Positions 1 through 16,246 of a DNA stretch of 17,566 nucleotides are shown here, in pieces. The stretch lies in IMG/VR virus record IMGVR_UViG_3300029071_000015; one strand, written 5' to 3'. This DNA is from a virus (Duplodnaviria; Heunggongvirae; Uroviricota; Caudoviricetes). The translations under genes and the position numbers were made by a program. The notes below the pieces were generated by a model. The model worked only from the letters and a program-made list of their open reading frames with translations. It was not told the origin of the DNA and searched no databases. Positions within the stretch are counted from its first letter, which is position 1. Each line of letters begins with the position of its first letter.

Positions 1-987
1 ATGAACGCAATAATATCGCCCGATTATTACTATGTTCTTACCGTTGCCGGTCAGTCTAATGCTATGGCGTATGGCGAAGGACTCCCGTTACCAGACAGTG
101 AAGATGCGCCTCATCCCAGAATAAAACAACTGGCGAGATTCACTCAGACGCATCCCGGTGGCCCGTTATGTCAATTTAATGACATTATTCCACTGACTCA
201 CTGCCCACACGATGTCCAGGATATGCAGGGTTATCACCATCCTCTGGCAACGAATCATCAAACACAGTACGGCACCGTTGGCCAGGCACTACATATTGCG
301 CGGAAATTACTGCCCTTCATTCCTGATAATGCAGGCGTTCTTATCGTTCCCTGTTGCCGTGGTGGATCGGCTTTTACCACGGGCAGCGAAGGGACATATT
401 CAGAACAGCACGGAGCCAGCCATGATTCATGTCGTTGGGGAGCGGATACTCCGCTGTATCAGGATTTAGTCAACAGAACACGAACGGCACTGTCAAAGAA
501 TCCGCAGAATAAATTCCTCGGCGTATGCTGGATGCAGGGCGAATTTGACTTAATGACCAGTGACTACGCGTTACATCCTCAATACTTTAATCATATGGTT
601 GAAGCCTTTCGTGAGGATTTGAAACAGTATCGTTCTCAGCTTAATAATATTGCTGCCGCTCCGTGGTTTTGCGGCGATACCACCTGGTACTGGAAAGAAA
701 ATTACCCTCATTCGTATGAAACGATTTATGGCAATTATAAAAATAATGCCTTAGCCAATATTATTTTCGTCGGCTTCCAGCAACAAGGTGAAAGAGGGCT
801 GACGAACGAGCCAGATGAAGATCCGGACGATTTTATCACGGGATATTACGGTTCAGCGTACCGAACACCAGAAAACTGGACGACGGTGCTACGCAGCAGT
901 CATTTCAGCTCAGCAGCCCGTCGGGGGATTATTTCTGACAAATTTGTTGAAGCTATTTTACGGTATTGGTGCGATATGTGGCTTTAA
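1..987 (+). CDS. nanS: N-acetyl-9-O-acetylneuraminate esterase (SGNH/sialate O-acetylesterase family), NanS/YjhS-like
   Basis: 328-aa ORF starting at window position 1; N-terminal GQSN motif typical of SGNH hydrolases; N-terminus MNAIISPDYYYVLTVAGQSNAMAYGEG matches my recollection of E. coli YjhS/NanS. Not verified by search. Confidence 0.75.
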   Translation: MNAIISPDYYYVLTVAGQSNAMAYGEGLPLPDSEDAPHPRIKQLARFTQTHPGGPLCQFNDIIPLTHCPHDVQDMQGYHHPLATNHQTQYGTVGQALHIARKLLPFIPDNAGVLIVPCCRGGSAFTTGSEGTYSEQHGASHDSCRWGADTPLYQDLVNRTRTALSKNPQNKFLGVCWMQGEFDLMTSDYALHPQYFNHMVEAFREDLKQYRSQLNNIAAAPWFCGDTTWYWKENYPHSYETIYGNYKNNALANIIFVGFQQQGERGLTNEPDEDPDDFITGYYGSAYRTPENWTTVLRSSHFSSAARRGIISDKFVEAILRYWCDMWL

Positions 988-988
988 T

Positions 989-1297
989 ATGCGCCACGAT
1001 GACACCACCGTCGCGCAGGAAGCGGCGCATATAAAATGGAAACAGCACGGCGGCCCTTGTGAAATCCCCAATGGTCTGGCGCTTTGCGCAATTCACCATA
1101 AAGCCTTTGATAAAGGATCGATTGGCCTGGATGAAAATATGCGGGTACTGGTCTCGGATGCGGTAAACGGCGGAGGGATCGTTGAGAAACTATTCTGGGA
1201 TTTTGACGGGAAAACTATTGCGTTGCCGCAGGTGCGTAAAAATTACCCTTTTGAGGGGTTTGTGGAGTGGCATCGGAAAGAGGTTTTTAGGGGGTGA
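989..1297 (+). pseudogene. C-terminal HNH-nuclease-domain fragment (truncated remnant)
   Basis: In-frame Met at 989 immediately after the nanS stop; the translation contains an H-N-H-like pattern (AAHIKWKQHGGPCEIPNGLALCAIHHKAFD). The upstream part of ORF 815..1297 overlaps nanS in another frame and is probably not coding, so no N-terminal domain is present. Confidence 0.3.
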
Positions 1298-1304
1298 GGT
1301 TTGC

Positions 1305-1350
1305 TGTAAATAGACCCGTTTTAGTTCCATGCATTTTTTGAGCTCCCGGC
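1305..1350. repeat. Left arm of a 46-bp inverted repeat (45/46 match to the reverse complement of 2521..2566)
   Basis: tgtaaatagacccgttttagttccatgcattttttgagctcccggc; the reverse complement of 2521..2566 is identical except one base (gagCtcc vs gagAtcc). Confidence 0.85.
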
Positions 1351-1386
1351 ACTGCTAAATCCGCGCTGGGGCAAGTTGGGTTTAGG

Positions 1387-1656
1387 TTGCGCCAGAAGAT
1401 GGCAACTCATCATGGTATGCAGTTCGTTCCATGGCTGAGAGTCACACTGGAGCAAGAGTTTGTACATAACAATCCGGCCAAAGTTAATGATGATAATTTC
1501 AATAACGATATTGCCGGAACAAGAGGAAGTTGCCAGGCTGGCATCAGCGCGGCTACCACGCCGCACACACATATTTACGCCAGCATAAATTATGAGAAAG
1601 GTGATGGGGTGGAATCGCCGTGGACTGGAAACATTGGCTTTAATTATAGTTTCTAA
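1387..1656 (+). CDS. Possible C-terminal fragment of an outer-membrane beta-barrel protein (questionable)
   Basis: 89-aa ORF ending in ...WTGNIGFNYSF with a terminal Phe and alternating aromatic/hydrophobic residues, reminiscent of an OMP C-terminal beta-strand signature; no convincing RBS identified. Confidence 0.2.
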   Translation: MRQKMATHHGMQFVPWLRVTLEQEFVHNNPAKVNDDNFNNDIAGTRGSCQAGISAATTPHTHIYASINYEKGDGVESPWTGNIGFNYSF

Positions 1657-1762
1657 TATGGCATTTCATGTTTATATCAATTCCTATATATCCATTGCTT
1701 TTACAATCAAATGAGAACACCATTCATTATCTTAACAATAGAGATGAAGTCAGGAGACAGCC

Positions 1763-2356
1763 ATGTCATTGCTAGAGTCATTTGGGAAAGTATTAATTAT
1801 ATTGCTTGAAGCATTTTTAGGGAAACGCAAAGGTCAGGAGGAAGCACATATTAATTTTTTAAATGAATATACGAAAGAAAACTGCAACCATCGCTTGGTA
1901 GAATATTGGTTTTGTCAGCTCACAGGATGGCGTTACGCAAAGTACCAGGATATTGTTTTTATAATGATCTCATCCGACCCATCAAAAATATTGTATATGG
2001 CTAAAGGCATTAATTACATTGCCCGTACAGTGGAATTTATTGATAGTGGAGAATGTAAACTATCCGATAGACATAAAGAAACGAAAAAGAATACATTCCT
2101 CTTTTTGTTCATATCATTCATGATCATTTTCTTCATATTAATTGCCTGGATGGTATCCTCTGTAATATCTCTGATAACACATCATCATGATGTCATATTA
2201 ATGGCTATAAATATTTCATCGATAATAGCTGGTGCGATTTTTATCATGTGCTTTGCATTCTTCATTCATGCAATAACAATGGAGTTTTTTGCCTTTGAAA
2301 AGGCAGAGCATTTTGTAAAATCTTACAATGCAGAAAGAGCATCATCAGGTCGTTAA
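1763..2356 (+). CDS. Hypothetical membrane protein (soluble N-terminal ~110 aa followed by 2-3 predicted TM helices)
   Basis: 197-aa ORF with a strong RBS (caggagacagccATG); AT-rich codon usage; hydrophobic stretches FLFLFISFMIIFFILIAWMVSSVISLI and ILMAINISSIIAGAIFIMCFAFFIHAI; lies inside the inverted-repeat-bounded segment. Confidence 0.6.
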   Translation: MSLLESFGKVLIILLEAFLGKRKGQEEAHINFLNEYTKENCNHRLVEYWFCQLTGWRYAKYQDIVFIMISSDPSKILYMAKGINYIARTVEFIDSGECKLSDRHKETKKNTFLFLFISFMIIFFILIAWMVSSVISLITHHHDVILMAINISSIIAGAIFIMCFAFFIHAITMEFFAFEKAEHFVKSYNAERASSGR

Positions 2357-2520
2357 TGTTTGCCTCTATATTAATGCTACTGCTATCGCCACCTATTAAT
2401 ATCTGCCAATCAATAGGCAAAAAGGTGATACCAGTGGCATCAAAATTTCAGCCAAACAATCTTTGTAAGACGAAGATCTCTGATTTAACACTGCACTGAT
2501 TTTGGGCCAGGGTCAATTTG

Positions 2521-2566
2521 GCCGGGATCTCAAAAAATGCATGGAACTAAAACGGGTCTATTTACA
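2521..2566. repeat. Right arm of the 46-bp inverted repeat
   Basis: gccgggatctcaaaaaatgcatggaactaaaacgggtctatttaca; its last base abuts the first codon of the sid remnant. Confidence 0.85.
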
Positions 2567-2698
2567 ACCGGACTGTCAGCGGCAACACTCCCGCACATGG
2601 ATTATGAGGTGGCAGACACACCGGCACAGCGCAAGGTGTGGCAGGACAAAATAGACCAGCAGGCAGCAGAGCTTAAGGCCAGAGGACTGCTGTCATGA
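2567..2698 (+). pseudogene. sid: 3' remnant (last ~43 codons) of a P4 sid-like capsid-size-determination gene
   Basis: Translation TGLSAATLPHMDYEVADTPAQRKVWQDKIDQQAAELKARGLLS* matches my recollection of the P4 Sid C-terminus; the stop overlaps the next start (tcATGAtg), as expected in a sid-delta-psu late operon. Confidence 0.6.
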
Positions 2699-2806
2699 TG
2701 CGCTGCCATTTCTGTCGTCATTCTGCGCATACCCGCACCGGCAAGCACAGCACCGGCTGTTGTCCGAAAAGTTAAAGGCTGTTACAGCTCACCATTCAAC
2801 CATTAA
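2695..2806 (+). pseudogene. ogr/delta-like zinc-finger late activator gene with internal deletion and frameshift
   Basis: Starts MMRCHFCRHSAHTRT (CxxC zinc-finger start like Ogr/delta) and terminates early; its 3' end in another frame encodes KVKGCYSSPFNH*, matching the C-terminus KVQGCYSSPFRH* of the intact copy at 12450..12689. About 110 bp here versus 240 bp in the intact copy. Confidence 0.55.
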
Positions 2807-2820
2807 TCAGGAGACGGGGT

Positions 2821-3393
2821 GTGACTACAATGTCATTACAGCAGGCTTTTGAGGTCTGCCAGAATAATAAAGCGGCATAGCTTCAGCGCAAAAATGAACT
2901 AGCGGCAGCCGAACAGGAATATCTGCGGCTTCTGTCCGGGGAAGGCAGGAATGTCAACCGGCTGGACGAATTACGCAATATTATCGAAGTCAGAAAATGG
3001 CTGGTGAATCAGGCCGCCGGTCGTTATATTCGTTCGCATGAAGCCGTTCAGCACATCAGCATCTGCGACCGGCTGAATGATTTTATGCAGCAGCACGGCA
3101 CAGCACTGGCGGCCGCACTGGCACCGGAGCTGATGGGCTACAGTGAGCTGACGGCCGTTGCCCGAAACTGAGCCATACAGCGTGCCACAGATGCCCTGCG
3201 TGAAGCCCTCCTGTCCTGGCTTGCGAAGGGTGAAAAAATTAATTATTCCGCACAGGATAGCGACATTTTAACGGCTATCGGATTCAGGCCTGACGAGGCT
3301 TCGGTGGATGACAGCCGTGAAAAATTCACTCCTGCGCAGAACATAATTTTTTCCCGTAAAAGTGCAGAACTGGCATCACGTCAGTCTGTGTAA
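2821..3393 (+). pseudogene. psu: psu (polarity suppression protein) pseudogene with two in-frame stop codons
   Basis: A 573-nt frame (190 codons plus stop, GTG start with RBS aggagacgggGTG) alignable along its length to the intact Psu at 12705..13271 (roughly 60% identity by eye); TAG at 2878..2880 where the intact copy has Trp, and TGA near 3170 where a sense codon is expected. Confidence 0.75.
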
Positions 3394-3423
3394 AATTCCC
3401 CGAAAATCCGCCTGTTTTTACTG

Positions 3424-3458
3424 AAAAAAGCCATGCATCGATAAGGTGCATGGCTTTG
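3424..3458 (+). terminator. Putative intrinsic terminator downstream of psu (element 2 copy)
   Basis: Hairpin gccatgca-tcgataagg-tgcatggc followed by ttt; a homologous hairpin follows the intact psu at 13311..13346. Confidence 0.35.
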
Positions 3459-3557
3459 CATGCGTTTTCCCGCCTCATTTCCTGCAGATCACGCCGCACC
3501 CGGCGCGGCCTGAGCGTGTCAGTGCAACTGCATTAAAACCGCTCCGCAAAGCGGGCG

Positions 3558-3576
3558 GGCGAGGCGGGGAAAGCAC
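3558..3576. other. cos site (19-nt P2/P4-type cohesive-end sequence)
   Basis: ggcgaggcggggaaagcac is identical to the P2/P4 cohesive-end sequence as I recall it, and sits downstream of psu as in P4. Confidence 0.6.
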
Positions 3577-3603
3577 TGCGCGCTGCAAATTAATACTAGC
3601 TTA

Positions 3604-4167
3604 TTAAGCATCCGCTTCAAATCCTCCAAGATCGATTTGCTCTTCGATTTCAGGAGTCCAAAGTAATTCTTCTGGCGTAGCGTTTGACCAAAGCAATTTA
3701 CCATTCTCGATAACATACTTAACCGGTATTTTAGGATTGTTTATGTCTTTACCATCTCTTTCATGCCATTGTCTCTCCCATTTATCATAGAAGACTTCCA
3801 AATCACCGGGCATGAGTAAATAAACTGAACGGATAGTGATATTACTATAAATTGCGAACACCCATGGAACCTGCCTATATTTCGCAATTATTGTTGGATT
3901 CATATGATGGTGAGTTGAAAAACTTTTAGTTAACTCAACATTAACTGATTTTAATTCAAACTCAGTACCAGTGACATCTACTGCATCATTACCTTCTCGC
4001 CCAGGAAGAACTTTAAGACTGAGAAGTAAAAGAACTTGCAGGAGTTTCCCTCCGTTATCTTGGAATATATCATTGATTCCGTGCTTATTAGCTAACCGTT
4101 GATATTCTTCAACCTGAGGCCAAAGCGCAATTAAATTTGACCAATCTTGATGCAACTCAAATTTCAT
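3604..4167 (-). CDS. Type II restriction endonuclease, PvuII-like (PD-(D/E)xK)
   Basis: 187-aa ORF; segments [51 protein letters not shown] and DKWER match my recollection of R.PvuII, including the catalytic D...E-x-K; ATGA overlap with the upstream C gene; divergent from the methyltransferase. Confidence 0.75.
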
Positions 4168-4400
4168 ACCTGATTATTCTCCAACAGGGAACTGGGAGAG
4201 ACGCCAAGGGCTGAAGCAATTCGGTCGATATTATCAATGGAAATATTTCTTTCACATCGCTCTACTGATCCGATGTAAGTTCTATGCAAGCCTGCTAAGT
4301 CAGCCAAGGCTTCTTGAGACAACCCTTGTCTCTCCCTTAACTTTCTGATGTTATGGGCAAAAATCACTCTTGCTCTTGAGGGGTTTATCTTTCGTTCCAT
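4164..4400 (-). CDS. Controller (C) protein of restriction-modification system, XRE-family HTH
   Basis: 78-aa ORF with a helix-turn-helix region ([41 protein letters not shown]) resembling C.PvuII-type controller proteins; sits immediately upstream of and overlaps the endonuclease gene. Confidence 0.8.
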
Positions 4401-4427
4401 TCGCGAGACAATGCAGCCTTGATGACA

Positions 4428-4452
4428 ATAGATCTACAGACTATGAGTAGCA
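4428..4452. promoter_or_regulatory. Putative C-box operator in the divergent M/C-R intergenic region
   Basis: The 55-bp intergenic region contains dyad-symmetric elements (tagatcta; actatgagt, i.e. ACT-N3-AGT) just upstream of the C gene start, where C-protein operators normally lie. Confidence 0.4.
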
Positions 4453-4455
4453 GTT

Positions 4456-5430
4456 ATGACATTTGACAATAAAAAACCTGCGTACAAAACAGATTTGGGT
4501 GCAATGTACATTGCTGACTCGCTTGAAATGCTTAAATCGATGCCAGACAACAGCTTAAATTTAGTGATGACAAGCCCACCTTTCGCATTACAGCGTAAGA
4601 AAGAATATGGTAATCACGATCAAGAACAGTACATCGATTGGTTTTTAAAATTCGGCGAGCTGATTTTTAAAAAGCTAAAAGATGATGGTAGCTTTGTCGT
4701 CGATTTTGGTGGTGCTTACATGAAAGGAGTGCCTGTTAGAAGTGTCTACAACTTCCGGGTTTTGATCAGGATGATTGATGAGGTTGGGTTCCATCTGGCT
4801 GAGGACTTCTATTGGTTTAACCCTTCAAAACTACCAAGTCCTATTGAGTGGGTTAACAAAAGAAAGCTGCGTGTTAAAGATTCTGTTAACACAATTTGGT
4901 GGTTTAGCAAAACCGAATGGCCAAAGTCAGATATAACTAAAGTTCTTGTTCCCTATAGTGATAGGATGAAAAAACTTATTGAAGACCCTAATAAATATTA
5001 TTCCCCCAAAATGCGTCCATCAGGGCATGATATAAGCAGCAGCTTTGGCAAAGATAATGGCGGTGCTATACCTCCAAATTTATTGCAAATTCCCAACTCC
5101 GAATCTAACGGTGGATATTTATCGAGTTGTAAAAAAATTGGCGTTAAGGGGCATCCAGCACGATTCCCATCTAAATTGCCGGAGTTTTTCATTACAATGT
5201 TAACAGAGCCGGGTGATCTTGTTGTAGATATTTTTGGCGGTTCAAATACAACTGGAAGTGTTGCTGAACGATTAAAACGCAAATGGCTTTCATTTGAAAT
5301 ATTACCTGAATATGTAGCCGCATCTGTATTTAGATTTACAGATAAAAATACAAGTCAAGATATACTTCAAGAGATGTATGACACTATATTAAATGGAAAT
5401 ACTCTCGATTTATGCGCCAAAGAGAAATAA
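4456..5430 (+). CDS. DNA methyltransferase, beta-class amino-MTase (likely N4-cytosine, M.PvuII-like)
   Basis: 324-aa ORF; motif IV TSPPF near the N-terminus and motif I FGGSNTTG near the C-terminus (the circularly permuted order typical of beta-class N4C/N6A MTases); divergently arranged to the C-R genes. Confidence 0.8.
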   Translation: MTFDNKKPAYKTDLGAMYIADSLEMLKSMPDNSLNLVMTSPPFALQRKKEYGNHDQEQYIDWFLKFGELIFKKLKDDGSFVVDFGGAYMKGVPVRSVYNFRVLIRMIDEVGFHLAEDFYWFNPSKLPSPIEWVNKRKLRVKDSVNTIWWFSKTEWPKSDITKVLVPYSDRMKKLIEDPNKYYSPKMRPSGHDISSSFGKDNGGAIPPNLLQIPNSESNGGYLSSCKKIGVKGHPARFPSKLPEFFITMLTEPGDLVVDIFGGSNTTGSVAERLKRKWLSFEILPEYVAASVFRFTDKNTSQDILQEMYDTILNGNTLDLCAKEK

Positions 5431-5505
5431 GGTCAAATCGTAGTTAGCTAATTCGTAAAGAAAGCCAGTCATAGAGTCAGATTGGCTTTCTATCAGCATA
5501 AATAA

Positions 5506-6764
5506 TTAAGCATGAAGTTTTGCGTAGTCAAATGGACTAATAGGTTTAATCTTGTTTGCATCAAGATAATCAGCCCACCATTGAACCATTAATCGCCTTT
5601 CATCCAAATGTTCAGGGGTATGAATATAAGCTGCCCTAACACTATTACGCTCAGAATGACTCAACTGACGTTCTATCGCGTCATCACTCCATAGCCCCGA
5701 CTCCCCCAACGCACCACGTGCCATATTCCTAAAACCATGACCACAGACTTCCGTTTTTGTGTTATATCCCATCGCACGCAATGCATTGTTTACCGTATTT
5801 TCACTCATAACCTTAGCTGCGTCATGATCTCCCGGGAAAAGAAGCTCTTTATCACCACTAATCTGCTCAAGCTGTACTAACAACATCATCGCCTGCTGGC
5901 TAAGTGGAACTATATGCTCCTCTTTCATTTTCATGCCGCGATACGAGTAACGCACACCTTTAATTTCTTCACGTTTTGCCGGAATACGCCAAATAGCGTT
6001 ATCAAAATCAAATTCTTTCCAACGAGCAAAACGCAATTCGCTTGAACGAACAAAAGTTAGTAAAGAAAGCTCAACCGCAATTTTCGTCATCATACGACCA
6101 CGATATGCAGCAAGACGCGCCAAGAACTCAGGGAAACGATGTGAGGGTAGCGCCGGATAGTGCCGCATTTTAGATGTCGATAACGCTCCAGCCATATCAC
6201 TTGCAGGATTCGAGTCTATATAATCGTTCTGTACGGCATAGCGCATAATAGTAGTGACACGTTGCTGAAGACGCTGCGCTACATCATGCTTACCACTGGC
6301 ATCAACTTTTTTATCGGAGCTAGAAGATGACTAGTTTTAAGCTGTCGGATATCAGACGAGCCAATATAAGGGAAGATATAAAGCTCTAGATAGCGAAGAA
6401 CGCGCCCCCGATGATCCTCGCTCCAACGTTTGTTGCTGGCATGCCATTCACGGGTAATAGTTTCAAAATTATAAGTACCAGCATTCTCTGCTTGGGCCTC
6501 TTTTCGTACTGCTTTTGGATCTATGCCGTGTGCCAGCAACTTTTTCGCTTCATCCCTTCTCGTTCTAGCTTCAGCAAGCGTCACGGTCGGCCAAACACCA
6601 AAAGCAAGACGATCCTCTTTTTTGTCGGAGGGGCGTCTGTATTTCATACGCCAATATTTAGAGCCTTTGATAGAAACCTCAAGATACAAACCGCCACCAT
6701 CAGCCATTTTGTAGGTTTTGTCTTTTAGCTTTGCGGTCTCGACTTGTCTGGCGTTGAGCTTCAT
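5506..6764 (-). pseudogene. int: P4-family tyrosine integrase, frameshifted (split into 6279..6764 and 5506..6246 ORFs)
   Basis: The two ORFs together align along the intact integrase at 16301..17566 (roughly 85-90% identity); the nucleotide alignment shows a 1-bp deletion near 6270..6290 (ttttttatcgg versus ttttttaatcgg in the intact copy) that breaks the frame. Confidence 0.8.
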
Positions 6765-6916
6765 TTTGGGGGCACATTTCTAATCGAAGTTAAGATGCCC
6801 CCAATGATATCCGGATTTCAACGGACAACCTCGGAAGAGGTAGGACGTAAAAATCGCTGCAAGCATTGATTTTAAAGGGATATTTGGACTTTCTCGGATG
6901 GTCTTGGAAGTACTAA

Positions 6917-6935
6917 TGGTGCGAAGGCCGGACTC
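6917..6935 (-). other. att core remnant: partial copy of a tRNA-Leu (leuX-like) 3' end
   Basis: tggtgcgaaggccggactc is the reverse complement of a tRNA-Leu 3' end (...GAGTCCGGCCTTCG(G)CACCA) with one base missing; located ~150 bp upstream of the frameshifted int, in the same orientation as a tRNA-int arrangement. Confidence 0.45.
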
Positions 6936-7080
6936 AAATTACGATATAACATACTGAAATATAATAATTTTAAATTAAAAGGAAAGTAATATGCCCCCTT
7001 TTGTGCCCCCAACGATTTTTTTGAGCATATAAAACCTAGCTAATTGATATTGCTAACAAATTAAAGATTAACTCCCTATT

Positions 7081-7111
7081 CGGTTAGGATCCGAAATCCG
7101 GATCCTAACCG
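7081..7111. repeat. Perfect 13-bp inverted repeat with 5-nt spacer
   Basis: cggttaggatccg-aaatc-cggatcctaaccg; no flanking T-run, so not a typical intrinsic terminator. Confidence 0.7.
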
Positions 7112-7129
7112 GAACTTAATCCCCACAAA

Positions 7130-7415
7130 AAAGTTTTTTTGCATTTAACTGTTCATACTGTTCACCTTGGTTATTTCTCATTTTATATCATGCAGTTAAG
7201 TGATGATGAGTTGGTGAAGGGTGAACAGTCGACTCTTCACCTTTGTTCGTTTTACTCATTCTGGGGGGGCCCCGTCAGGCGATACACGGGGGGATAAAAA
7301 GTTTTTTCCGGTTTTACTGTTCACACTGTTCACCTCTGGTTTTTTATCAATAATTTCATGGTGATACAGGGTGAACATACGGTGAAGGGTGAACAGTGGA
7401 GTGTTCACCCTGTGG
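7130..7415. promoter_or_regulatory. crr-like cis replication region: two ~120-bp direct repeats containing TGTTCACC-type iterons in both orientations
   Basis: Unit 1 (about 7130..7245) and unit 2 (about 7296..7415) each contain aaaaagttttttt, ctgttcaNactgttcacc and ggtgaagggtgaacag; TGTTCACC is the P4 alpha-protein type I iteron; located just past the 3' end of the primase gene, as crr is in P4. Confidence 0.55.
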
Positions 7416-7461
7416 CAATGTCCAGTAAGAAAATGACCGGCTATTGCCGGTCTTAGGTTGG

Positions 7462-9795
7462 TTATGCCTCTGCGGGGTCGTCGCACTTCGGCAGCCAGTC
7501 GCCGTAGCTTTCCTCTTTCAGCGACAGGTTAGTCTGTATCCCCTGCTTTGTGTGCCGCTTCTCATAATTCAGGCCGTACTCTTTCAGCATCATGGGCAGC
7601 CCCAGCCCGAACATTTTCAGGCTGAGTACGTTCCTGTACCCGTTAGCCTCCATATAGGCCAGATACGCGTGATAGAGATATTTACGGTAATTACGCGGGA
7701 TGATGCTGGCATTCCCCATAAACATCCCGTTGGTCTGCGGGAGCATTTCCAGATAGCCGCAAAAATCAAACGTCGGGTCAGCATCGCGCTTGATGCTGAG
7801 CGCCTCGTCGGAGTTCTGCTGCGACTGGAGCAGTGCGCGCGCTGCCATCGGGTCGCTGAATTTCTGCATAAGCTGGCGCACAATCACGGCCAGCTCACGC
7901 GCAATTTTATCCCTGAGCTGCGGGTCGCGTTCCTCCGGCGCAATCTGCTCCGGGAAGTGGATAATCACCCGGCGGCGCGACACACCGCCGCTGCGGTCGG
8001 TGAAGCGCATGGGGTTATTGTTCACGGCCAGAATCACCGCCGGAATATGTGTTGAGTATGGGTTCTGGTATTTCGGGTCAACTGAGACCGCATCGCCGCC
8101 GGTGATGGCCTTAAGTCCTGCGCCGTCACCGCTCCATTTTTCCTGGTCTGGCAGACGGATTAGCGAGAAGCCAATCAGGGAGGCACGCTTGCGCGGGTCT
8201 TCCAGTGTGTCGATATCGGCCGACGTGGCGTTATCTTCCCCGGCGAGCAGGGTCGCGATTTCGGCCAGAATACTTTTGCCGCTCCCGCCGGGGCCGGTGA
8301 CTTCGAGAAAGAGCTGCCAGTCGTAGCGGTTCGCCAGTACCATAAACAGCGCGGCCAGAATCACGTCGCGTTTTTGTGGATTTTTGCCGGCCGCACGGTC
8401 GAGCCAGCGCCAGAAGTTCGGCGAGTGAGTCTCCAGCGTTTCCCCGTCCACCGGTGGGGTGAAATCCACGTCGCACAGCGTGCGCAGCCAGTGTGATTTA
8501 CTGTGCGGGCTGAACAGGCCGCTCTGGGTATCGAGTACCCCGTTGCGAAAGCCAATCAGACGACGCGCCGGTGTATCCTGCTGCGGAATAATCAGTTTCA
8601 GGGTCTCCACCACCGAGGCAATTTTCCCCGATGAGAACGGGGCGCGCAGACGCTGGAATAAGTCAGCCACATTCCGTGAAAAAGTGGCGGCAGGGATATT
8701 TTTCCAGATGCCGTTTTCATAGCGGGACAGGAGCTGGCCGTTTGCATCCACCGCCAGCGCTTCGCCGTAATGCTCATGCACCCGCAAGGCCTTGTCGCTG
8801 GCGCTCATGGCGGTAAATTCCGCCTCGCTCATGGTATCAAACGGGCTTTGCGCCGGTGGCCGGATAGCGTCATAAATGGCTTTGCGTGTCGCATCCTCAC
8901 CATTCTGCATAAACGCATCATTCCAGTCACCGAACACCGGCGGCAGGGCGACAATGCCCTCACAGGCTTCTGCGGCCGCGGCGGCTTTACTCTGGCCGTC
9001 GCCGTTAAGGTCACGGTCGGCGGCGAGCACAATCTGACAGGCCGGGTGTTTTTGTCGGGCAAGGCTCGCCAGAGAAAGGAGGTTCACGGAGGACAGCGCC
9101 ACCATGACGGTTTCGCCGGTCAGGTGATGCACGGTGAGCGCGGTCGCATAACCCTCCGCTATCCACAGGCGCTTTCCCGCCTGTTTTTTCCCTTCGATGA
9201 TGTGGCACGCTCCTTTTACCGCCCCGCCTTTCAGGGTGCGTTTGAGACCGTCAGAATTAATAAGCTGAACGTTAACCAGCGCCCCGGCATCGTCATACAG
9301 TGGGACAACCATATCACCGGCGCGGAACGTCACACCGCCGGTTTTGTGTGTGGCCGTCAGCATGACACACTCATGACCGGGGAATCCCTTGCGGGTGAGG
9401 TAGGCATTGCCGCTGGCCGGTCGGGTTTTCTCCATGAGCCTGACGGCCAGCGCGGCCGCCGCCTGGCGGTCAACCTCCGTTTCTGCTTCTGCGGCCGCAA
9501 TCACTTCCGGGGCAACCGGCGGCAGGTTGCCGGTCACGGCGTTCACCTTTTGAGCTGCCTCTGACGGATTTACACCGAACACCTTTTCAACCAGCTTAAG
9601 CCCGTCACCTGCGCCACACTGATTGCAAAACCACGTCCCGCGCCCTTCTTTATCATCAAAGCGGAAACGGTCAGAGCCGCCACACACCGGGCAGGACTGA
9701 TGGCGGTTTTTAATCACCTTCACACCCAGCGCAGGGAGAATGTGCGGCCAGTGGCCGCAGGCCTGTTTTACCGTTTCTGTTACGTTCATTTTCAT
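7462..9795 (-). CDS. P4 alpha-like primase-helicase (zinc-binding primase, P-loop NTPase)
   Basis: Long ORF; start chosen at MKMNVTETV with RBS gagggagaaaacaaccATG; N-terminal zinc-finger CPVCGGSDRF...FCNQCG; Walker A GPGGSGKS; size comparable to P4 alpha. Confidence 0.9.
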   Translation of the reverse strand: MKMNVTETVKQACGHWPHILPALGVKVIKNRHQSCPVCGGSDRFRFDDKEGRGTWFCNQCGAGDGLKLVEKVFGVNPSEAAQKVNAVTGNLPPVAPEVIAAAEAETEVDRQAAAALAVRLMEKTRPASGNAYLTRKGFPGHECVMLTATHKTGGVTFRAGDMVVPLYDDAGALVNVQLINSDGLKRTLKGGAVKGACHIIEGKKQAGKRLWIAEGYATALTVHHLTGETVMVALSSVNLLSLASLARQKHPACQIVLAADRDLNGDGQSKAAAAAEACEGIVALPPVFGDWNDAFMQNGEDATRKAIYDAIRPPAQSPFDTMSEAEFTAMSASDKALRVHEHYGEALAVDANGQLLSRYENGIWKNIPAATFSRNVADLFQRLRAPFSSGKIASVVETLKLIIPQQDTPARRLIGFRNGVLDTQSGLFSPHSKSHWLRTLCDVDFTPPVDGETLETHSPNFWRWLDRAAGKNPQKRDVILAALFMVLANRYDWQLFLEVTGPGGSGKSILAEIATLLAGEDNATSADIDTLEDPRKRASLIGFSLIRLPDQEKWSGDGAGLKAITGGDAVSVDPKYQNPYSTHIPAVILAVNNNPMRFTDRSGGVSRRRVIIHFPEQIAPEERDPQLRDKIARELAVIVRQLMQKFSDPMAARALLQSQQNSDEALSIKRDADPTFDFCGYLEMLPQTNGMFMGNASIIPRNYRKYLYHAYLAYMEANGYRNVLSLKMFGLGLPMMLKEYGLNYEKRHTKQGIQTNLSLKEESYGDWLPKCDDPAEA

Positions 9796-9809
9796 GGTTG
9801 TTTTCTCCC

Positions 9810-10130
9810 TCAGTGCAGTACCGGCGCGGTGATATGACGGGCGCAAAGCTCATCCATCACGGCCAGCCCGAGAAAGGACAGCGACGGCGCGGCTTTGAGT
9901 GGTCCGGCTTCCATTAAATCCTCCAGTAGTGCACAGGCAATCTGGCGGCCTTTTTCCTCGCCGTGCTGGCGCAGGTAGAAGCCCTCCAGTTCGGCGGCAA
10001 TAGTGCTTTCCAGCGCGTCGAGGGTGAGGTGTGGATGGCGGTGCTGACGTTCGCACAGGGTCAGCCATGCACAGGCCACGGCGCGACGATACAGCGCGGC
10101 GCGTAATACGGGCGGTAATGGCTTTTTCAT
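9810..10130 (-). CDS. Hypothetical protein, P4-family early-operon gene upstream of primase
   Basis: 106-aa ORF ending 14 nt upstream of the primase start; ATGA overlap with the preceding gene suggests an operon. Confidence 0.5.
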
Positions 10131-10545: not shown

Positions 10546-10747
10546 AGCGGCAATCTCCAATAAGTAGCGGTTATCGCCACCACAAGAGCTGCAAATCTCA
10601 TGGGTGGTAGCCCGGACAGGGTTTGCAGTACCGGCCTTATTGGAAACCGGCCAGCCCGAAGGCTGCCCCGCCCGGACCACCATTATCTGACAGGAGCCAC
10701 GGTGTAAGCACCACAGCCCGAAAAATAGGTGTGTCTGAGCAACGACA

Positions 10748-10770
10748 TAAAAAAACACGCTCGGCGCGTG
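10748..10770 (-). terminator. Putative intrinsic terminator (minus strand) downstream of the AlpA-like gene
   Basis: 6-bp stem acacgc/gcgtgt with 5-nt loop, followed on the minus strand by a run of 7-8 U. Confidence 0.35.
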
Positions 10771-10898
10771 TTGTGTCGCCAATAAGTTACACGGGCTGCA
10801 AATCCCGGCTGCCGATTTTGCGACAGCGGGAAAACTATACCTGGAAACGGCGAAAAGAAGCAAGCCAGAAAAAGGGGCTGTTTGCTGAACGGTCATCA

Positions 10899-11294: not shown

Positions 11295-11331
11295 GGCAAA
11301 CAAAGGCAAACGCTGGCAAACATATGCAAAT
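11295..11331. promoter_or_regulatory. Four 7-bp direct repeats (GGCAAAC x3, TGCAAAT) at exact 10-bp spacing: putative operator array
   Basis: Repeats start at 11295, 11305, 11315 and 11325; one helical turn apart; in the divergent regulatory region between the AlpA-like and sid-like genes. Confidence 0.4.
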
Positions 11332-11339
11332 CACTGCAT

Positions 11340-11540
11340 TACAATGCAGCAATTTCTATTTCTTTTAGTTATATATTTTTTATTTTTAATCGAAATAAAA
11401 TCTAGATGCTATAGCCAGGGCAAAACAGGAGGGTGAACAGTGGTGAACAGTCGGTGAACAGTCAGACCCTCAACTGTTCACCATTTAACTTACTGTATTA
11501 CTTATCTTTTTATTTAAGGTGAACAGTGGTGAATAGTTAT
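11340..11540. promoter_or_regulatory. ori-like region: AT-rich stretch plus cluster of GGTGAACA/TGTTCACC iterons
   Basis: AT-rich 11340..11410; iterons gggtgaacagtggtgaacagtcggtgaacagt...ctgttcacc (11432..11483) and ggtgaacagtggtgaatagt (11517..11538); same octamer as in the crr-like region. Confidence 0.5.
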
Positions 11541-13668: not shown

Positions 13669-14748
13669 ATGAATGTAGGGCATCTCAATTTTTTCAAGGT
13701 TAATAAGTGCGGTTTATACAAGGTAAATGATGACAATACCTATGGTTTAGAACTAAGCGAAACATTTGACCTCATACAGGATTGGGTAGGAACTAAACCT
13801 CTTGCACTCACCATACCATGGGACCCAAAAGAAAAACCCAATAGATCAAAGTGTTATTGTAAAGACATCTACAAAGATGAAAATACTGGTGATTTTTTAA
13901 TCATGTTATGGAAATCTGATACTGATAGTACTGGTTCTTTATTAGGAGCGAGTGAAGACGGTGAAATCGGAAGTTCATCAGTGGTTAAATATACTAATAG
14001 CTACAGAGGGAAAAAAGTCATCTGGGGTCGCCCATGCTTTTATTGGGTTATACCTGAACTTGAAACTATAGTTTCTATTAAATTCGATCATTCTGTTTGT
14101 GACTCTGAACTATTTCAAGATTATGTACACTCATCTATTACTAATAGAGTTAAACATAGCAAAAGAGTTAAAAATAAAACCGAGAAAGGTTATATAAGAT
14201 TATCTAATACTGATGACGAAGATTTATATAAATACATGTACAGATTTGATATGAAGCTCCGAAGCTTAGAAACCACTCATGCTGAGTTAGGTAAATTGAT
14301 ATCAAAAATAACACATATTGTTCGCAGAGAAACCATTATTATAAATCCAAATGACGCACGAGCTGATTGGTTAAAGACTTTTAGCACTCTCGTTCCATTT
14401 GTGTCCGGAAAGAAAAACACCAGAACAAGACAGATTGAAATAAAAGCAGAAGCGAAGCCATCCTTGAAAGAAGTTCAAGAAATAATTGAAAAACATTCTG
14501 CTGAGGATAGAGAAAAACGTCTTTGGGATAATGTGGGATTTGCGACGGACAAGGGCATAACATGGGTGGATAAATATAGAATGCGTGATATTCTCAATGT
14601 CCCTTCCGAAGACTATTCGACATATACCGCTGCATATATCTACGAACACATATCACACAAAAGAAAAGAATTCATTTCCCCTATATTAAAAGAGCTAAAA
14701 GCATTAAAATCTCAATCAAGAATAAAGAAAGCATCTGGAGAGGATTGA
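13669..14748 (+). CDS. Hypothetical protein (cargo gene A, 359 aa, soluble, Lys-rich)
   Basis: Long ORF with RBS aaggaaagagcATG; AT-rich codon usage contrasting with the satellite backbone; no catalytic motif I can recognise; stop directly abuts the next start (TGAATG). Confidence 0.7.
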   Translation: MNVGHLNFFKVNKCGLYKVNDDNTYGLELSETFDLIQDWVGTKPLALTIPWDPKEKPNRSKCYCKDIYKDENTGDFLIMLWKSDTDSTGSLLGASEDGEIGSSSVVKYTNSYRGKKVIWGRPCFYWVIPELETIVSIKFDHSVCDSELFQDYVHSSITNRVKHSKRVKNKTEKGYIRLSNTDDEDLYKYMYRFDMKLRSLETTHAELGKLISKITHIVRRETIIINPNDARADWLKTFSTLVPFVSGKKNTRTRQIEIKAEAKPSLKEVQEIIEKHSAEDREKRLWDNVGFATDKGITWVDKYRMRDILNVPSEDYSTYTAAYIYEHISHKRKEFISPILKELKALKSQSRIKKASGED

Positions 14749-15285
14749 ATGTTAAAAGCTATAGTAGGCCTCGTCAAATACACATGGATATACATAGCAA
14801 TATTCATTATATCGCTATTGGTCATTTTACCATCCGATATTTACTATGTGTATAACGATTTTGCTAACTATTGCACTCTTCTCGTATCAGTTTCTGGAAT
14901 GGTTTTTACTATTATGGGGATTTGGTTAGCGTTTCTTTATCCAAATGCTTTGCAGCGTATTGTTAACCCCAAAACTATAGAAACTGTTGATTTCACCGAA
15001 CAACTGGAAGATACAAAAAGGTTAGAAGCAATAGTTGGAAGTGTTCTAAAATCATCTTTCGTTATGATTACTTTACTTGTTGTATATTTAGTTAAACTAG
15101 TATTTTTCAAGAGTCATCTTTATTTAGAGAGTCAAGAAGTAATAAAAGACATATCTTTAGCATTAATTATTGCCATTTCATACATGCAGATTGAGGCAGT
15201 GATTAGTGTAATACTAGCTAATGTTATGTTTATCAATGATTTACATAATAAGCGAGAGCAAAGAGACATCGACGATCAAGTATGA
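14749..15285 (+). CDS. Hypothetical integral membrane protein (cargo gene B, 178 aa, ~4 TM helices)
   Basis: Four hydrophobic segments (WIYIAIFIISLLVIL, LLVSVSGMVFTIMGIWLAFLY, FVMITLLVVYLVKLVFF, LALIIAISYMQIEAVISVILANVMFI); translationally coupled to gene A. Confidence 0.7.
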   Translation: MLKAIVGLVKYTWIYIAIFIISLLVILPSDIYYVYNDFANYCTLLVSVSGMVFTIMGIWLAFLYPNALQRIVNPKTIETVDFTEQLEDTKRLEAIVGSVLKSSFVMITLLVVYLVKLVFFKSHLYLESQEVIKDISLALIIAISYMQIEAVISVILANVMFINDLHNKREQRDIDDQV

Positions 15286-15292
15286 GGAAAAA

Positions 15293-16246
15293 ATGAAAAA
15301 AAACATACGAGTTATACCTAAAAACATTCATAACAAGTTAAAAAGGCTTGGCAATGCAGTTGTTGCTGGCACTTCCATCGCATTTACAGAAGACCAATTA
15401 AAAAATGGTATACTAGAGCACCTTGGAATATACTTTGATAATGGTGTTAATGCTTATGAGACGTCGGTTATACCCGATCCATTGCAAGGCAAATATTCAT
15501 TCAAAAATGTTTTCGGTGAAGAAATCGTAAGAAAAGACCTTCCAAAAGAAACTCATTACACTGAAATTGAGTCACCTAACTGGGGTGATAGTTCTAACGG
15601 TACGCATACTGTTAGATTACCTCACGAGAAATACCCCAGAGATATTATCCCACCAAGACTCATAGCAATTGAAATTAATCACAAACAGTCTTCGGACAGT
15701 CATTTCATATTTAATTTCAGAGTAACTAGAATTTTAGAAAAAAAATCAACCAAGTTTCATGATGAATTATTATTCGACTTAAATCTTCTTCAAGAAAATA
15801 TTGGGAAGTGTGGGATTGAGAATGCTGATAAACCTATATCGACTTATGCTGACACACTCATAGTATCATGGGACATATTTCCACCAGGTAGTAAAGAGGA
15901 AGTTTTAGCAAGAATCTTTAGAGGGAAAAATATCACTACAGATAAGAAAAGTGTTGCTGAAAACAGATATGACTTCTTTATGAGCCTTGATCCTAAAAAA
16001 ATTGTCACAGGTAATAGTACGTTCAGTAATTATATTGGAGCTATGCTAGAGGACGACCTGGTTGTTTTTGAAAATATAGAATATGGTAATGCAATATATA
16101 TCCTCTATGATAACTGGGATGAAATCAGCAAGCTATCTCGAATCGATTTGTTATCAGGAAGAGCAGGCAATAATTTCGATAGAATAATTCATAGTGGTAA
16201 TTGGAAAGACGAGGTGCGAAAAAAAGTTACTAATGGAAGATTATGA
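15293..16246 (+). CDS. Hypothetical protein (cargo gene C, 317 aa, soluble)
   Basis: Start placed at MKKNIRV with RBS tatgaggaaaaaATG, 7 nt after the gene B stop; the longer listed ORF (from 15221) would overlap gene B; followed by a strong terminator. Confidence 0.65.
   Translation: MKKNIRVIPKNIHNKLKRLGNAVVAGTSIAFTEDQLKNGILEHLGIYFDNGVNAYETSVIPDPLQGKYSFKNVFGEEIVRKDLPKETHYTEIESPNWGDSSNGTHTVRLPHEKYPRDIIPPRLIAIEINHKQSSDSHFIFNFRVTRILEKKSTKFHDELLFDLNLLQENIGKCGIENADKPISTYADTLIVSWDIFPPGSKEEVLARIFRGKNITTDKKSVAENRYDFFMSLDPKKIVTGNSTFSNYIGAMLEDDLVVFENIEYGNAIYILYDNWDEISKLSRIDLLSGRAGNNFDRIIHSGNWKDEVRKKVTNGRL

What the first reader, a model, noticed from the sequence alone, without database searches (positions are those of the whole stretch)
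7130..7415. crr-like duplicated iteron region downstream of the primase gene
Seen in sequence: two ~120-bp direct repeat units, each with TGTTCAnACTGTTCACC and inverted GGTGAAGGGTGAACAG elements plus an A5-6GT6-7 tract. Established knowledge: P4 alpha protein binds TGTTCACC type I iterons at ori and at crr, and crr consists of two direct repeats. The arrangement here is consistent with a functional cis replication region for element 1.
Basis: partly seen in the sequence, partly recalled or inferred. Interest (0 to 1): 0.4.

Follow-up and report, generated by a model that had tools for sequence, protein, structure and literature searches.

The report
P4-type cis replication region (crr)
This is the known "cis replication region" of a P4-like phage satellite: two old ~115-bp repeats packed with binding sites for the satellite's own primase-helicase, just after that gene. 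It is an expected part of such an element, not a new kind of feature.

Summary
Two direct repeats lie at 7128-7241 and 7296-7409: 81 of 114 bases match at an offset of 168, against a maximum of 56 in simulations. Each has an A5-6GT6-7 tract, TGTTCAnACTGTTCACC and an inverted GGTGAAGGGTGAACAG. TGTTCACC occurs 11 times in the window (0.49 expected), only here and in an ori-like cluster at 11432-11525.

The region aligns with the annotated crr of phage P4 (70.6% identity, E 2e-44), in the same place: attP side, crr, alpha terminator, alpha. The primase-helicase (7462-9795, minus strand) is 85% identical to P4 alpha. Its C-terminus matches the solved P4 origin-binding domain (1KA8).

In 19 related satellites the two units are one-to-one orthologues. 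Iteron columns are the best conserved, and conservation begins abruptly at the A/T tract. An iteron variant (C or T at base 8) changes together in crr and ori.

Binding and the cis requirement were not tested. I rate this a new member of a known kind, of low interest.

Side findings:
- Element 1 is integrated at leuX next to a decayed second element.
- Sister clades carry one unit, or units separated by cargo genes.

The parts
7128..7241 (.). crr unit 1 (att-proximal ~114-nt direct repeat)
   Evidence: the repeat finder D1. Aligns to P4 crr repeat 4291-4410. Orthologous to unit 1 of 18 other loci.
7242..7295 (.). inter-unit spacer, G+C-rich (AT 0.43), hypervariable in sequence and length among relatives
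   Evidence: Alignment of 19 loci: mean majority fraction 0.70, 1 invariant column, variable length.
7296..7409 (.). crr unit 2 (alpha-proximal direct repeat)
   Evidence: the repeat finder D1. Aligns to P4 crr repeat 4471-4590 at 83%. This is the better conserved unit: 0.876 against 0.816 between loci.
7128..7141 (.). A6GT7 tract that opens unit 1; conservation among relatives starts exactly here
   Evidence: A/T tract columns 0.913 conserved; the flank to the left 0.384.
7298..7309 (.). A5GT6 tract that opens unit 2
7150..7166 (+). iteron pair TGTTCATA (2 mismatches) and TGTTCACC, 9 nt apart
   Evidence: Homologous to P4 type 1 repeats 4314-4321 and 4323-4330.
7214..7227 (-). overlapping inverted iterons GGTGAAGG and GGTGAACA (perfect at 7220-7227)
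   Evidence: Homologous to P4 type 1 repeat 4384-4391.
7234..7241 (+). iteron TCTTCACC (1 mismatch)
   Evidence: Homologous to P4 4398-4405, which has the same TCTTCACC variant.
7318..7334 (+). iteron pair TGTTCACA (1 mismatch) and TGTTCACC
   Evidence: Homologous to P4 4494-4501 and 4503-4510.
7370..7377 (-). inverted iteron GGTGAACA (perfect; P4 has GGTGAATA here)
7382..7395 (-). overlapping inverted iterons GGTGAAGG and GGTGAACA (perfect at 7388-7395)
7402..7409 (+). iteron TGTTCACC (perfect)
   Evidence: Homologous to P4 4578-4585.
7435..7452 (-). intrinsic terminator of alpha (GACCGGCAATAGCCGGTC followed by a T run)
   Evidence: Aligns to the P4 'talpha' terminator at 4604-4628. Columns 0.943 conserved.
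7462..9795 (-). alpha primase-helicase, 777 aa, the presumed reader of the iterons
   Evidence: 85% identical to P4 alpha over 777 aa. Pfam hits Zn_Ribbon_Prim, Toprim_3, D5_N, DUF5906, Pox_D5. The C-terminus matches 1KA8, E 1.6e-62.
11432..11535 (.). ori-like iteron cluster: 5 perfect TGTTCACC and TATTCACC, in the P4 arrangement
   Evidence: Aligns to P4 type 1 repeats 9310-9413.
11340..11429 (.). AT-rich stretch next to the ori iterons (candidate unwinding element); the crr has nothing comparable
   Evidence: Highest AT in a 40-nt window: 0.925 at 11351 in the ori region, 0.725 in the crr.
6922..6935 (-). att core copy (3' end of tRNA-Leu CAA, leuX) that bounds element 1, 193 nt from the crr
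   Evidence: The same 14-mer lies in the tRNA of L083 and at this junction. Aligns to the P4 attP core 4078-4097 with a 1-nt gap.

Best explanation
The region is the cis replication region (crr) of an integrated P4-like satellite of about 10.8 kb.

Shown here:
- It is noncoding and has two anciently duplicated ~114-nt units.
- Each unit carries 5-6 copies or near-copies of the octamer TGTTCACC in the order + + - - +, preceded by an AnGTn tract.
- It sits between the alpha terminator and the att core.
- The same octamer forms the ori cluster 4 kb away.

Inferred from P4 (GenBank annotation and my own knowledge of the work of Flensburg & Calendar 1987, Ziegelin et al. 1993 and Diaz Orejas et al. 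1994):
- After excision, the C-terminal winged-helix domain of alpha binds the iterons at both ori and crr.
- Alpha bridges the two sites into a loop.
- This complex is needed in cis for efficient opening and priming at the AT-rich ori, from which theta replication proceeds.

On this reading the crr acts as a distant, orientation-tolerant enhancer of initiation and not as the start site. The AnTn tracts probably supply intrinsic bends; that is my inference only.
For: Homology to the annotated P4 crr:
- 70.6% identity over 92% of the query, E 2e-44, and P4 records were the only hits in 50,697 phage records.
- All ten annotated P4 type 1 repeats have a counterpart at the aligned position; nine are recognisable iterons and the counterpart of P4 4366-4373 (window 7202-7209) has decayed.

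Evidence of selection:
- In 19 P4-clade loci, iteron columns have a mean majority fraction of 0.951. Other intra-unit columns score 0.859, the spacer 0.702 and the att-side flank 0.384 (Mann-Whitney p 2e-5).
- Units are orthologous: 38 of 38 have a nearest neighbour of the same unit class.

Link to ori and alpha:
- TGTTCACC is confined to the crr and the ori.
- Base 8 of the iteron (C or T) covaries between crr and ori across 22 loci, rho 0.87, and tracks divergence of the alpha C-terminus.
- The alpha C-terminus matches the solved P4 origin-binding domain.

Not a gene, RNA or promoter:
- No reading frame stays open across relatives, and gaps against P4 are 4, 8 and 4 nt.
- No Rfam family and no promoter-like site were found in the region.

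Not the unwinding site: the AT-rich stretch is at the ori, not the crr.
Against: - Nothing here shows binding, looping or a cis requirement. Those steps are carried over from P4.
- Unit 1 is partly degenerate in this window (2 perfect iterons, one position lost). In L003 and L006 it has decayed further, so both units may not be needed.
- At least one relative (L038) has a full ori cluster but no recognisable crr within 4 kb downstream of alpha.
- The covariation is essentially a contrast between two clades and is not corrected for phylogeny.
- The element is integrated next to a decayed neighbour, so whether it still excises and replicates is unknown.
Confidence: 0.82

Rival explanations
1. 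The same alpha-bound iteron array acts mainly as a negative copy-number control. It would titrate alpha or handcuff the ori, as incA of P1 or incC of F do downstream of their rep genes, and would be dispensable for initiation.
For: The layout, iterons upstream and downstream of the initiator gene, is that of P1 and F (my knowledge). Unit 1 decays in some relatives (L003, L006). L038 has an ori cluster but no crr within 4 kb. Both fit a dispensable element.
Against: In P4 the region is annotated as 'cis required region for replication' and is kept as essential in engineered P4 phasmids. Iterons are strongly conserved in all 18 P4-clade relatives. When cargo is inserted, the crr is kept further out and not lost.
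Confidence: 0.08
2. It is a decaying relic in a domesticated, no longer replicating island. It would be recognisable only because too little time has passed for it to erode.
For: The element sits in a tandem array with a clearly decayed neighbour that has a split integrase and a psu fragment. The att core differs from the P4 core by a 1-nt gap. Unit 1 has lost one iteron.
Against: - alpha, int (96% identical to P4 int), Psu, the delta-like gene, AlpA, the C4 RNA and the ori are all intact.
- The window crr has 6 perfect octamers against 5 in P4 itself.
- Conservation is concentrated in the iterons, not spread evenly.
Confidence: 0.06
3. The region encodes a small protein: the ORFs at 7139-7297 (+), 52 aa, or 7256-7486 (-), 76 aa, or a counterpart of the GeneMark-predicted P4p05.
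For: ORFs of 52 and 76 codons exist. RefSeq P4 carries a predicted hypothetical CDS, P4p05, that overlaps unit 1.
Against: The longest stop-free frame changes frame and length from locus to locus. Gaps against P4 are not multiples of three. Conservation follows octamers on both strands, not codons.
Confidence: 0.02
4. It belongs to the site-specific recombination apparatus, as extra arm-type or accessory-factor sites of attP, and not to replication.
For: It lies only 193 nt from the att core, next to the conserved ATGCCCCC-type arm repeats.
Against: - The octamer differs from the arm repeats and is shared with the distant ori, not with the int-side arm.
- Relatives with unrelated att flanks keep the crr, and homology starts exactly at 7128.
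- The octamer variant tracks alpha, not int.
Confidence: 0.02

Closest known systems
crr (cis replication region) of satellite phage P4, NC_001609 / X51522 positions 4291-4590
   Same: - Position between attP and the alpha terminator.
- Two ~120-bp direct repeats.
- Order and orientation of the type 1 iterons (+ + - - +), including the TCTTCACC variant at the end of unit 1.
- The A/T tract at the start of each unit.
- The same octamer in a distant ori.
- A cognate alpha 85% identical.

   Different: - Only about 71% nucleotide identity.
- Start-to-start spacing 168 instead of 180 nt, and an unrelated spacer sequence.
- The two units are less alike here (71%) than in P4 (82%).
- Unit 1 has lost its third iteron, while unit 2 has a perfect octamer where P4 has TATTCACC.
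- The ori carries four 10-nt GCAAAY repeats where P4 has its unrelated type 2 repeats.
Single-unit or split crr of sister P4-like satellites (for example L011, L015, L036, L049 from Enterobacter, Mangrovibacter, Edwardsiella)
   Same: The same unit architecture downstream of a homologous alpha, and the same core TGTTCAC.
   Different: - One unit lies next to alpha, or units are 0.3-2 kb apart with ORFs between them.
- Base 8 of the iteron is mostly T in both crr and ori.
- The alpha C-terminus is only 75-80% identical.

Distant iteron sets of iteron plasmids: R6K gamma-ori iterons that activate the alpha and beta origins through pi-mediated looping; P1 incA and F incC (my knowledge, not tested here)
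   Same: It works like them: a second cluster of initiator-binding iterons kilobases from the start site, communicating with it through protein-mediated DNA looping.
   Different: - The initiator here is a primase-helicase with a C-terminal winged helix, unrelated to the pi, RepA and RepE proteins.
- incA and incC are negative and dispensable, whereas the P4 crr is annotated as required.
- There is no sequence relation.

Membership tests
P4-type crr | Nucleotide homology to the experimentally defined P4 crr | tested here: met
   blastn: 70.6% identity over 92% of window 7050-7480, E 2e-44, onto P4 4243-4654, which is annotated crr. Pairwise alignment.
P4-type crr | Lies just 3' of the alpha primase-helicase gene and its terminator, on the attP side | tested here: met
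   alpha stop codon at 7462-7464. Terminator at 7452-7435. crr at 7409-7128. att core at 6935-6922.
P4-type crr | Two direct repeats of about 120 bp separated by a short spacer | tested here: met
   Units at 7128-7241 and 7296-7409; 81/114 matches against a simulated maximum of 56. Spacing is 168 nt against 180 in P4.
P4-type crr | Each repeat carries about five type 1 iterons (TGTTCACC and near variants) in the order + + - - + | tested here: met
   Unit 2: all five positions within 1 mismatch, four of them perfect. Unit 1: two perfect, one with 1 mismatch, one with 2 mismatches, one lost.
P4-type crr | The same iteron is present in a separate ori several kb away on the same element | tested here: met
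   5 perfect and 1 near iteron at 11432-11535, aligned with the P4 ori type 1 repeats. No other exact copy in the window.
P4-type crr | A cognate alpha protein with the C-terminal origin-binding winged-helix domain | tested here: met
   777 aa, 85% identical to P4 alpha. The C-terminal 100 residues match PDB 1KA8, E 1.6e-62.
P4-type crr | Specifically bound by alpha | not testable with these tools
   Indirect support only: the iteron variant covaries between crr and ori and tracks the alpha C-terminus.
P4-type crr | Required in cis for replication from ori | not testable with these tools
   Needs a replicon assay. Conservation and retention after cargo insertion are consistent with a requirement.
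Protein-coding gene (P4p05-like) | A reading frame conserved among homologues | tested here: not met
   The longest stop-free stretch changes frame between loci. Gaps against P4 are 4, 8 and 4 nt.
Curated RNA family | Match to an Rfam model above its gathering score | tested here: not met
   The only Rfam hits in the window are C4 at 10600-10687 and isrK at 10750-10827. None lies in 7000-7500.

The most novel reading that the evidence does not exclude
The two crr units may double as the borders of a cargo slot.

- In this window the 54-nt hypervariable spacer would be the empty state.
- In sister satellites the same interval, or the interval between the alpha terminator and the crr, holds 0.7-3 kb of accessory and defence-like genes.
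- Homologous recombination between the direct repeats, or between crr units of co-resident or tandem satellites, would then drive gain, loss and exchange of cargo.
- That would give a mechanism for the minor 'primase-att' defence hotspot reported for P4-like elements (PMC13586616).
Probability: 0.15. Interest if true: 0.4.

Novelty: new member of a known kind. Interest (0 to 1): 0.15.

Why it matters
For this window it matters little. It shows that element 1 has the complete P4 replication module (alpha, ori, crr) and is probably still replication-competent. That is useful for annotating the element and for delimiting it from its decayed neighbour.

The comparative by-products are of modest value to satellite specialists:
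- The crr duplication is ancient, and its two copies evolve as separate orthologous lineages.
- The alpha-proximal unit is the more constrained.
- A sister clade uses one unit with a TGTTCACT iteron at both crr and ori.
- Cargo genes can sit between alpha and the crr, or between crr units.

Neither of the two surveys of P4-like satellites that I text-searched mentions the crr (0 occurrences).

Tried and rejected
- Primary papers. I tried two PMC ids recalled from memory for Ziegelin et al. 1993 and Tocchetti et al. 1999. Neither is held. Statements on alpha binding, looping and the cis requirement therefore rest on GenBank feature annotation, a secondary mention in a 2026 preprint and my own knowledge.
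- Literature search for 'TGTTCACC'. It returned 2,174 unrelated primer-type hits and was useless. In PMC9942202 the 'crr' hits were almost all 'crRNA'; one figure legend says the crr and P4 ori were included in a cosmid but were not active.
- Small protein. Rejected because no frame is conserved.
- Structured RNA or promoter. No Rfam hit and no sigma-70-like site in 6750-7550. One weak terminator-like hairpin on the + strand at 7287-7310 is simply the A5GT6 tract pairing with itself.
- crr as the unwinding site. Rejected because its highest AT content in 40 nt is 0.725, against 0.925 beside the ori iterons.
- Concerted evolution of the two units. Rejected: identity between units is 0.707 within a locus and 0.696 between loci.
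- Exact source in reference collections. The best hit among complete E. coli genomes is 92.3% and the best alpha in GTDB species representatives is 96%. Exact copies turned up only in metagenome assemblies.

Full report
**1. The observation**

The repeat finder gives a two-copy family of 114 nt at 7128-7241 and 7296-7409, 71% identical without gaps, 168 nt start to start. In my own scan this is the best ungapped pair in 7000-7500: 81 of 114 matches, against a mean of 47.2, sd 2.0 and maximum 56 in 300 Markov simulations.

Each unit opens with an AnGTn tract (7128-7141 and 7298-7309). It then carries TGTTCAnACTGTTCACC (7150-7166 and 7318-7334) and the inverted GGTGAAGGGTGAACAG (7214-7229 and 7382-7397). 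It ends with a forward octamer: TCTTCACC at 7234-7241 and TGTTCACC at 7402-7409. Unit 2 has one more perfect inverted octamer at 7370-7377.

Exact TGTTCACC occurs 11 times in 17.6 kb against 0.49 expected. Six copies are here and five at 11432-11525. With one mismatch allowed, three more fall in these two clusters: 7234, 7318 and 11528.

**2. Surroundings**

- The 794-codon ORF at 7462-9846 (minus strand) is a primase-helicase with Zn_Ribbon_Prim, Toprim_3, D5_N, DUF5906 and Pox_D5 domains. From its ATG at 9795 it is 777 aa and 85% identical to P4 alpha over the full length.
- Its last 100 ordered residues match PDB 1KA8, the P4 origin-binding winged-helix domain, with about six substitutions.
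- A terminator hairpin (7452-7435, minus strand) separates the gene from the repeats.
- Upstream of alpha lie DUF5375, Ash and AlpA genes, the C4 antisense RNA and isrK, the iteron cluster at 11432-11535 beside a 92% A+T stretch, a sid-like ORF, a delta-like gene (Ogr_Delta, called in the copies), Psu, a cargo block, and an integrase 96% identical to P4 Int.
- Exact copies of alpha occur in several metagenome assemblies. There a tRNA-Leu(CAA) lies just beyond the integrase, and its 3' core GAGTCCGGCCTTCG is repeated at window 6922-6935.

Element 1 is therefore an integrated P4-like satellite of about 10.8 kb, and the repeats lie 193 nt inside its far end. Left of that core is a second, decayed element. 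It has an integrase split by a frameshift (the same two ORFs appear in four assemblies), a PvuII-type restriction-modification system and a 55-codon psu fragment.

**3. What it is**

A sensitive blastn of 7050-7480 against 50,697 phage records hits only P4, at 4243-4654: 70.6% identity, E 2e-44. [quoted passage not shown]

The pairwise and four-unit alignments place every annotated P4 iteron opposite a window position. Even unit-specific details are shared, for example CAGTCGACTCTTCACC against CATTCGATTCTTCACC in unit 1, and CAGTGGAGTGTTCACC against CAGTGGATTGTTCACC in unit 2. The ori aligns equally well with the P4 ori type 1 repeats.

**4. Comparative evidence**

A scan of one genome per species found 80 loci with alpha homologues of 57-96% identity across Enterobacterales.

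- Where the alpha C-terminus is at least 85% identical, both units lie directly downstream of alpha in every locus with enough sequence.
- In a 19-sequence alignment homology begins abruptly at the A6GT7 tract. The att-side flank is unrelated among loci with other attachment sites.
- Column conservation is 0.951 in iterons, 0.913 in the A/T tracts, 0.859 elsewhere within units, 0.702 in the spacer and 0.384 in the flank.
- All 38 units have a nearest neighbour of their own class. Unit 2 is more conserved between loci (0.876) than unit 1 (0.816). Units of one locus are no more alike (0.707) than units of different loci (0.696).

The duplication therefore predates this clade and has not been homogenised.

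In a sister clade (alpha C-terminus 75-80% identical) the octamer is mostly TGTTCACT at the crr and partly so at the ori. Across 22 loci the T fraction at the crr and at the ori correlates with rho 0.87. That fits one protein reading both sites, although it is essentially a two-clade contrast.

No reading frame is conserved, and no Rfam family or promoter-like site is present.

**5. Mechanism**

Shown: anatomy, homology, selective conservation of the octamers, their restriction to the crr and the ori, and an intact cognate alpha with the known origin-binding fold.

Inferred from P4 (annotation; a preprint that treats the crr as essential for replication; my own knowledge of the 1987-1994 work, which I could not open): alpha binds the octamers at both sites, bridges them into a loop, and this is needed in cis for initiation at the AT-rich ori.

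The crr has no comparable AT-rich stretch, so it is unlikely to be a start site. The AnTn tracts may provide bends, which is inference only.

Rivals are listed in the rival-explanations section: negative handcuffing control, a decaying relic, a small ORF, and a recombination accessory site. None is favoured.

**6. Comparison and novelty**

All six features that can be tested in silico for a P4-type crr are met. The two functional features cannot be tested here.

Differences from P4 are quantitative:
- About 71% identity overall.
- 168-nt instead of 180-nt spacing.
- An unrelated spacer sequence.
- Units that are less alike than in P4.
- One iteron lost in unit 1 and one improved in unit 2.

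This is a new member of a known kind.

**7. By-products**

Some relatives have a single unit. Others have the crr displaced 0.7-3 kb from alpha, or a second unit 0.3-2 kb beyond the first, with ORFs in between. Two of these ORFs resemble defence proteins: OLD/AriA-like in L032 and Mrr-like PDC-S02 in L041.

[quoted passage not shown] Its relation to the crr units did not come up in the passages I searched in that paper. L038 has an ori cluster but no crr within 4 kb.

Noticed in passing
window 5506-6764 (-): The integrase next to the crr belongs to a second element and is split by a frameshift after about residue 153, into ORFs 6279-6764 and 5506-6246. The same two ORFs are called in four independent metagenome assemblies, so this is probably a real pseudogene and not a sequencing error.
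   Followed up: partly
window 1-6920; L083 12875-22334: 'Element 2' looks like a decayed P4-like remnant at leuX. It has a split int, a PvuII-type restriction-modification system with a C protein (3604-5430), a 55-codon psu fragment (3004-3171), and an HNH and a SASA esterase. NanM-like and KdgM-like genes follow beyond the window. No alpha, ori or crr of its own is visible.
   Followed up: partly
window 6765-6940: The int-side arm and the att core are almost identical to P4 attP 3940-4097. Similarity drops sharply on the crr side of the core, as expected at a junction between two elements. The core copy has a 1-nt gap relative to P4 attP.
   Followed up: partly
window 7081-7111: A perfect 13-bp inverted repeat with a 5-nt loop (CGGTTAGGATCCG / CGGATCCTAACCG) lies between the att arm repeats and the crr. 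It has no T run. P4 and four other loci keep it, P4 with a compensatory A/T swap in both arms (TTTGGATCC / GGATCCAAA). Function unknown.
   Followed up: partly
window 11296-11331: Four GCAAAY motifs at exact 10-nt spacing lie about 100 nt from the ori iterons. P4 has three unrelated 10-bp 'type 2' repeats (CCACTTAAAG-like) at the equivalent position, so the position is conserved but the sequence is replaced.
   Followed up: partly
window 10600-10687 and 10750-10827 (-): Rfam C4 antisense RNA (85.9 bits) and isrK (72 bits) both score above their gathering thresholds, so the P4-type RNA immunity region appears to be present.
   Followed up: no
window 13669-16246 (+): The cargo between psu and int of element 1 matches the candidate defence system PDC-M18: M18A (359 aa, E 1.5e-38) and M18B (178 aa, E 1e-15). 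A third ORF of 341 aa has no match.
   Followed up: partly
L011, L015, L019, L021, L023, L025, L029, L040, L043, L053 (about 50-165 nt after the alpha stop): A sister clade (alpha C-terminus 75-80% identical) has only one crr unit next to alpha. Its octamer is mostly TGTTCACT, a variant also found in its ori.
   Followed up: partly
L017 +1277..1566, L018 +2059..2350, L026 +2082, L036 +1877, L055 +1976, L049 +388 (relative to the alpha stop): Further crr units lie 0.3-2.3 kb beyond the alpha-proximal unit, with ORFs of 95-495 aa between them. Cargo seems to sit between crr units.
   Followed up: partly
L010 and L060 +727, L035 +842, L041 +1527, L037 +1756, L032 +2323, L058 +3092: Here the crr is displaced from the alpha terminator by inserted genes. 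These include an OLD/AriA-like ATPase (L032, E 3.5e-55) and an Mrr-like PDC-S02 protein (L041). This matches the published minor primase-att defence hotspot.
   Followed up: partly
L003 and L006, aligned to window 7150-7230: Unit 1 has decayed octamers (CTTTGCAGACTATTCATT, GACGCAGAGTTAACAG) while unit 2 is intact. This suggests the alpha-proximal unit can suffice.
   Followed up: no
L038 (Cedecea), 4 kb downstream of alpha: The ori cluster has five TGTTCACC, but no crr-like sequence or iteron cluster lies within 4 kb downstream of alpha. Either this is a crr-less relative or its crr lies further away.
   Followed up: no
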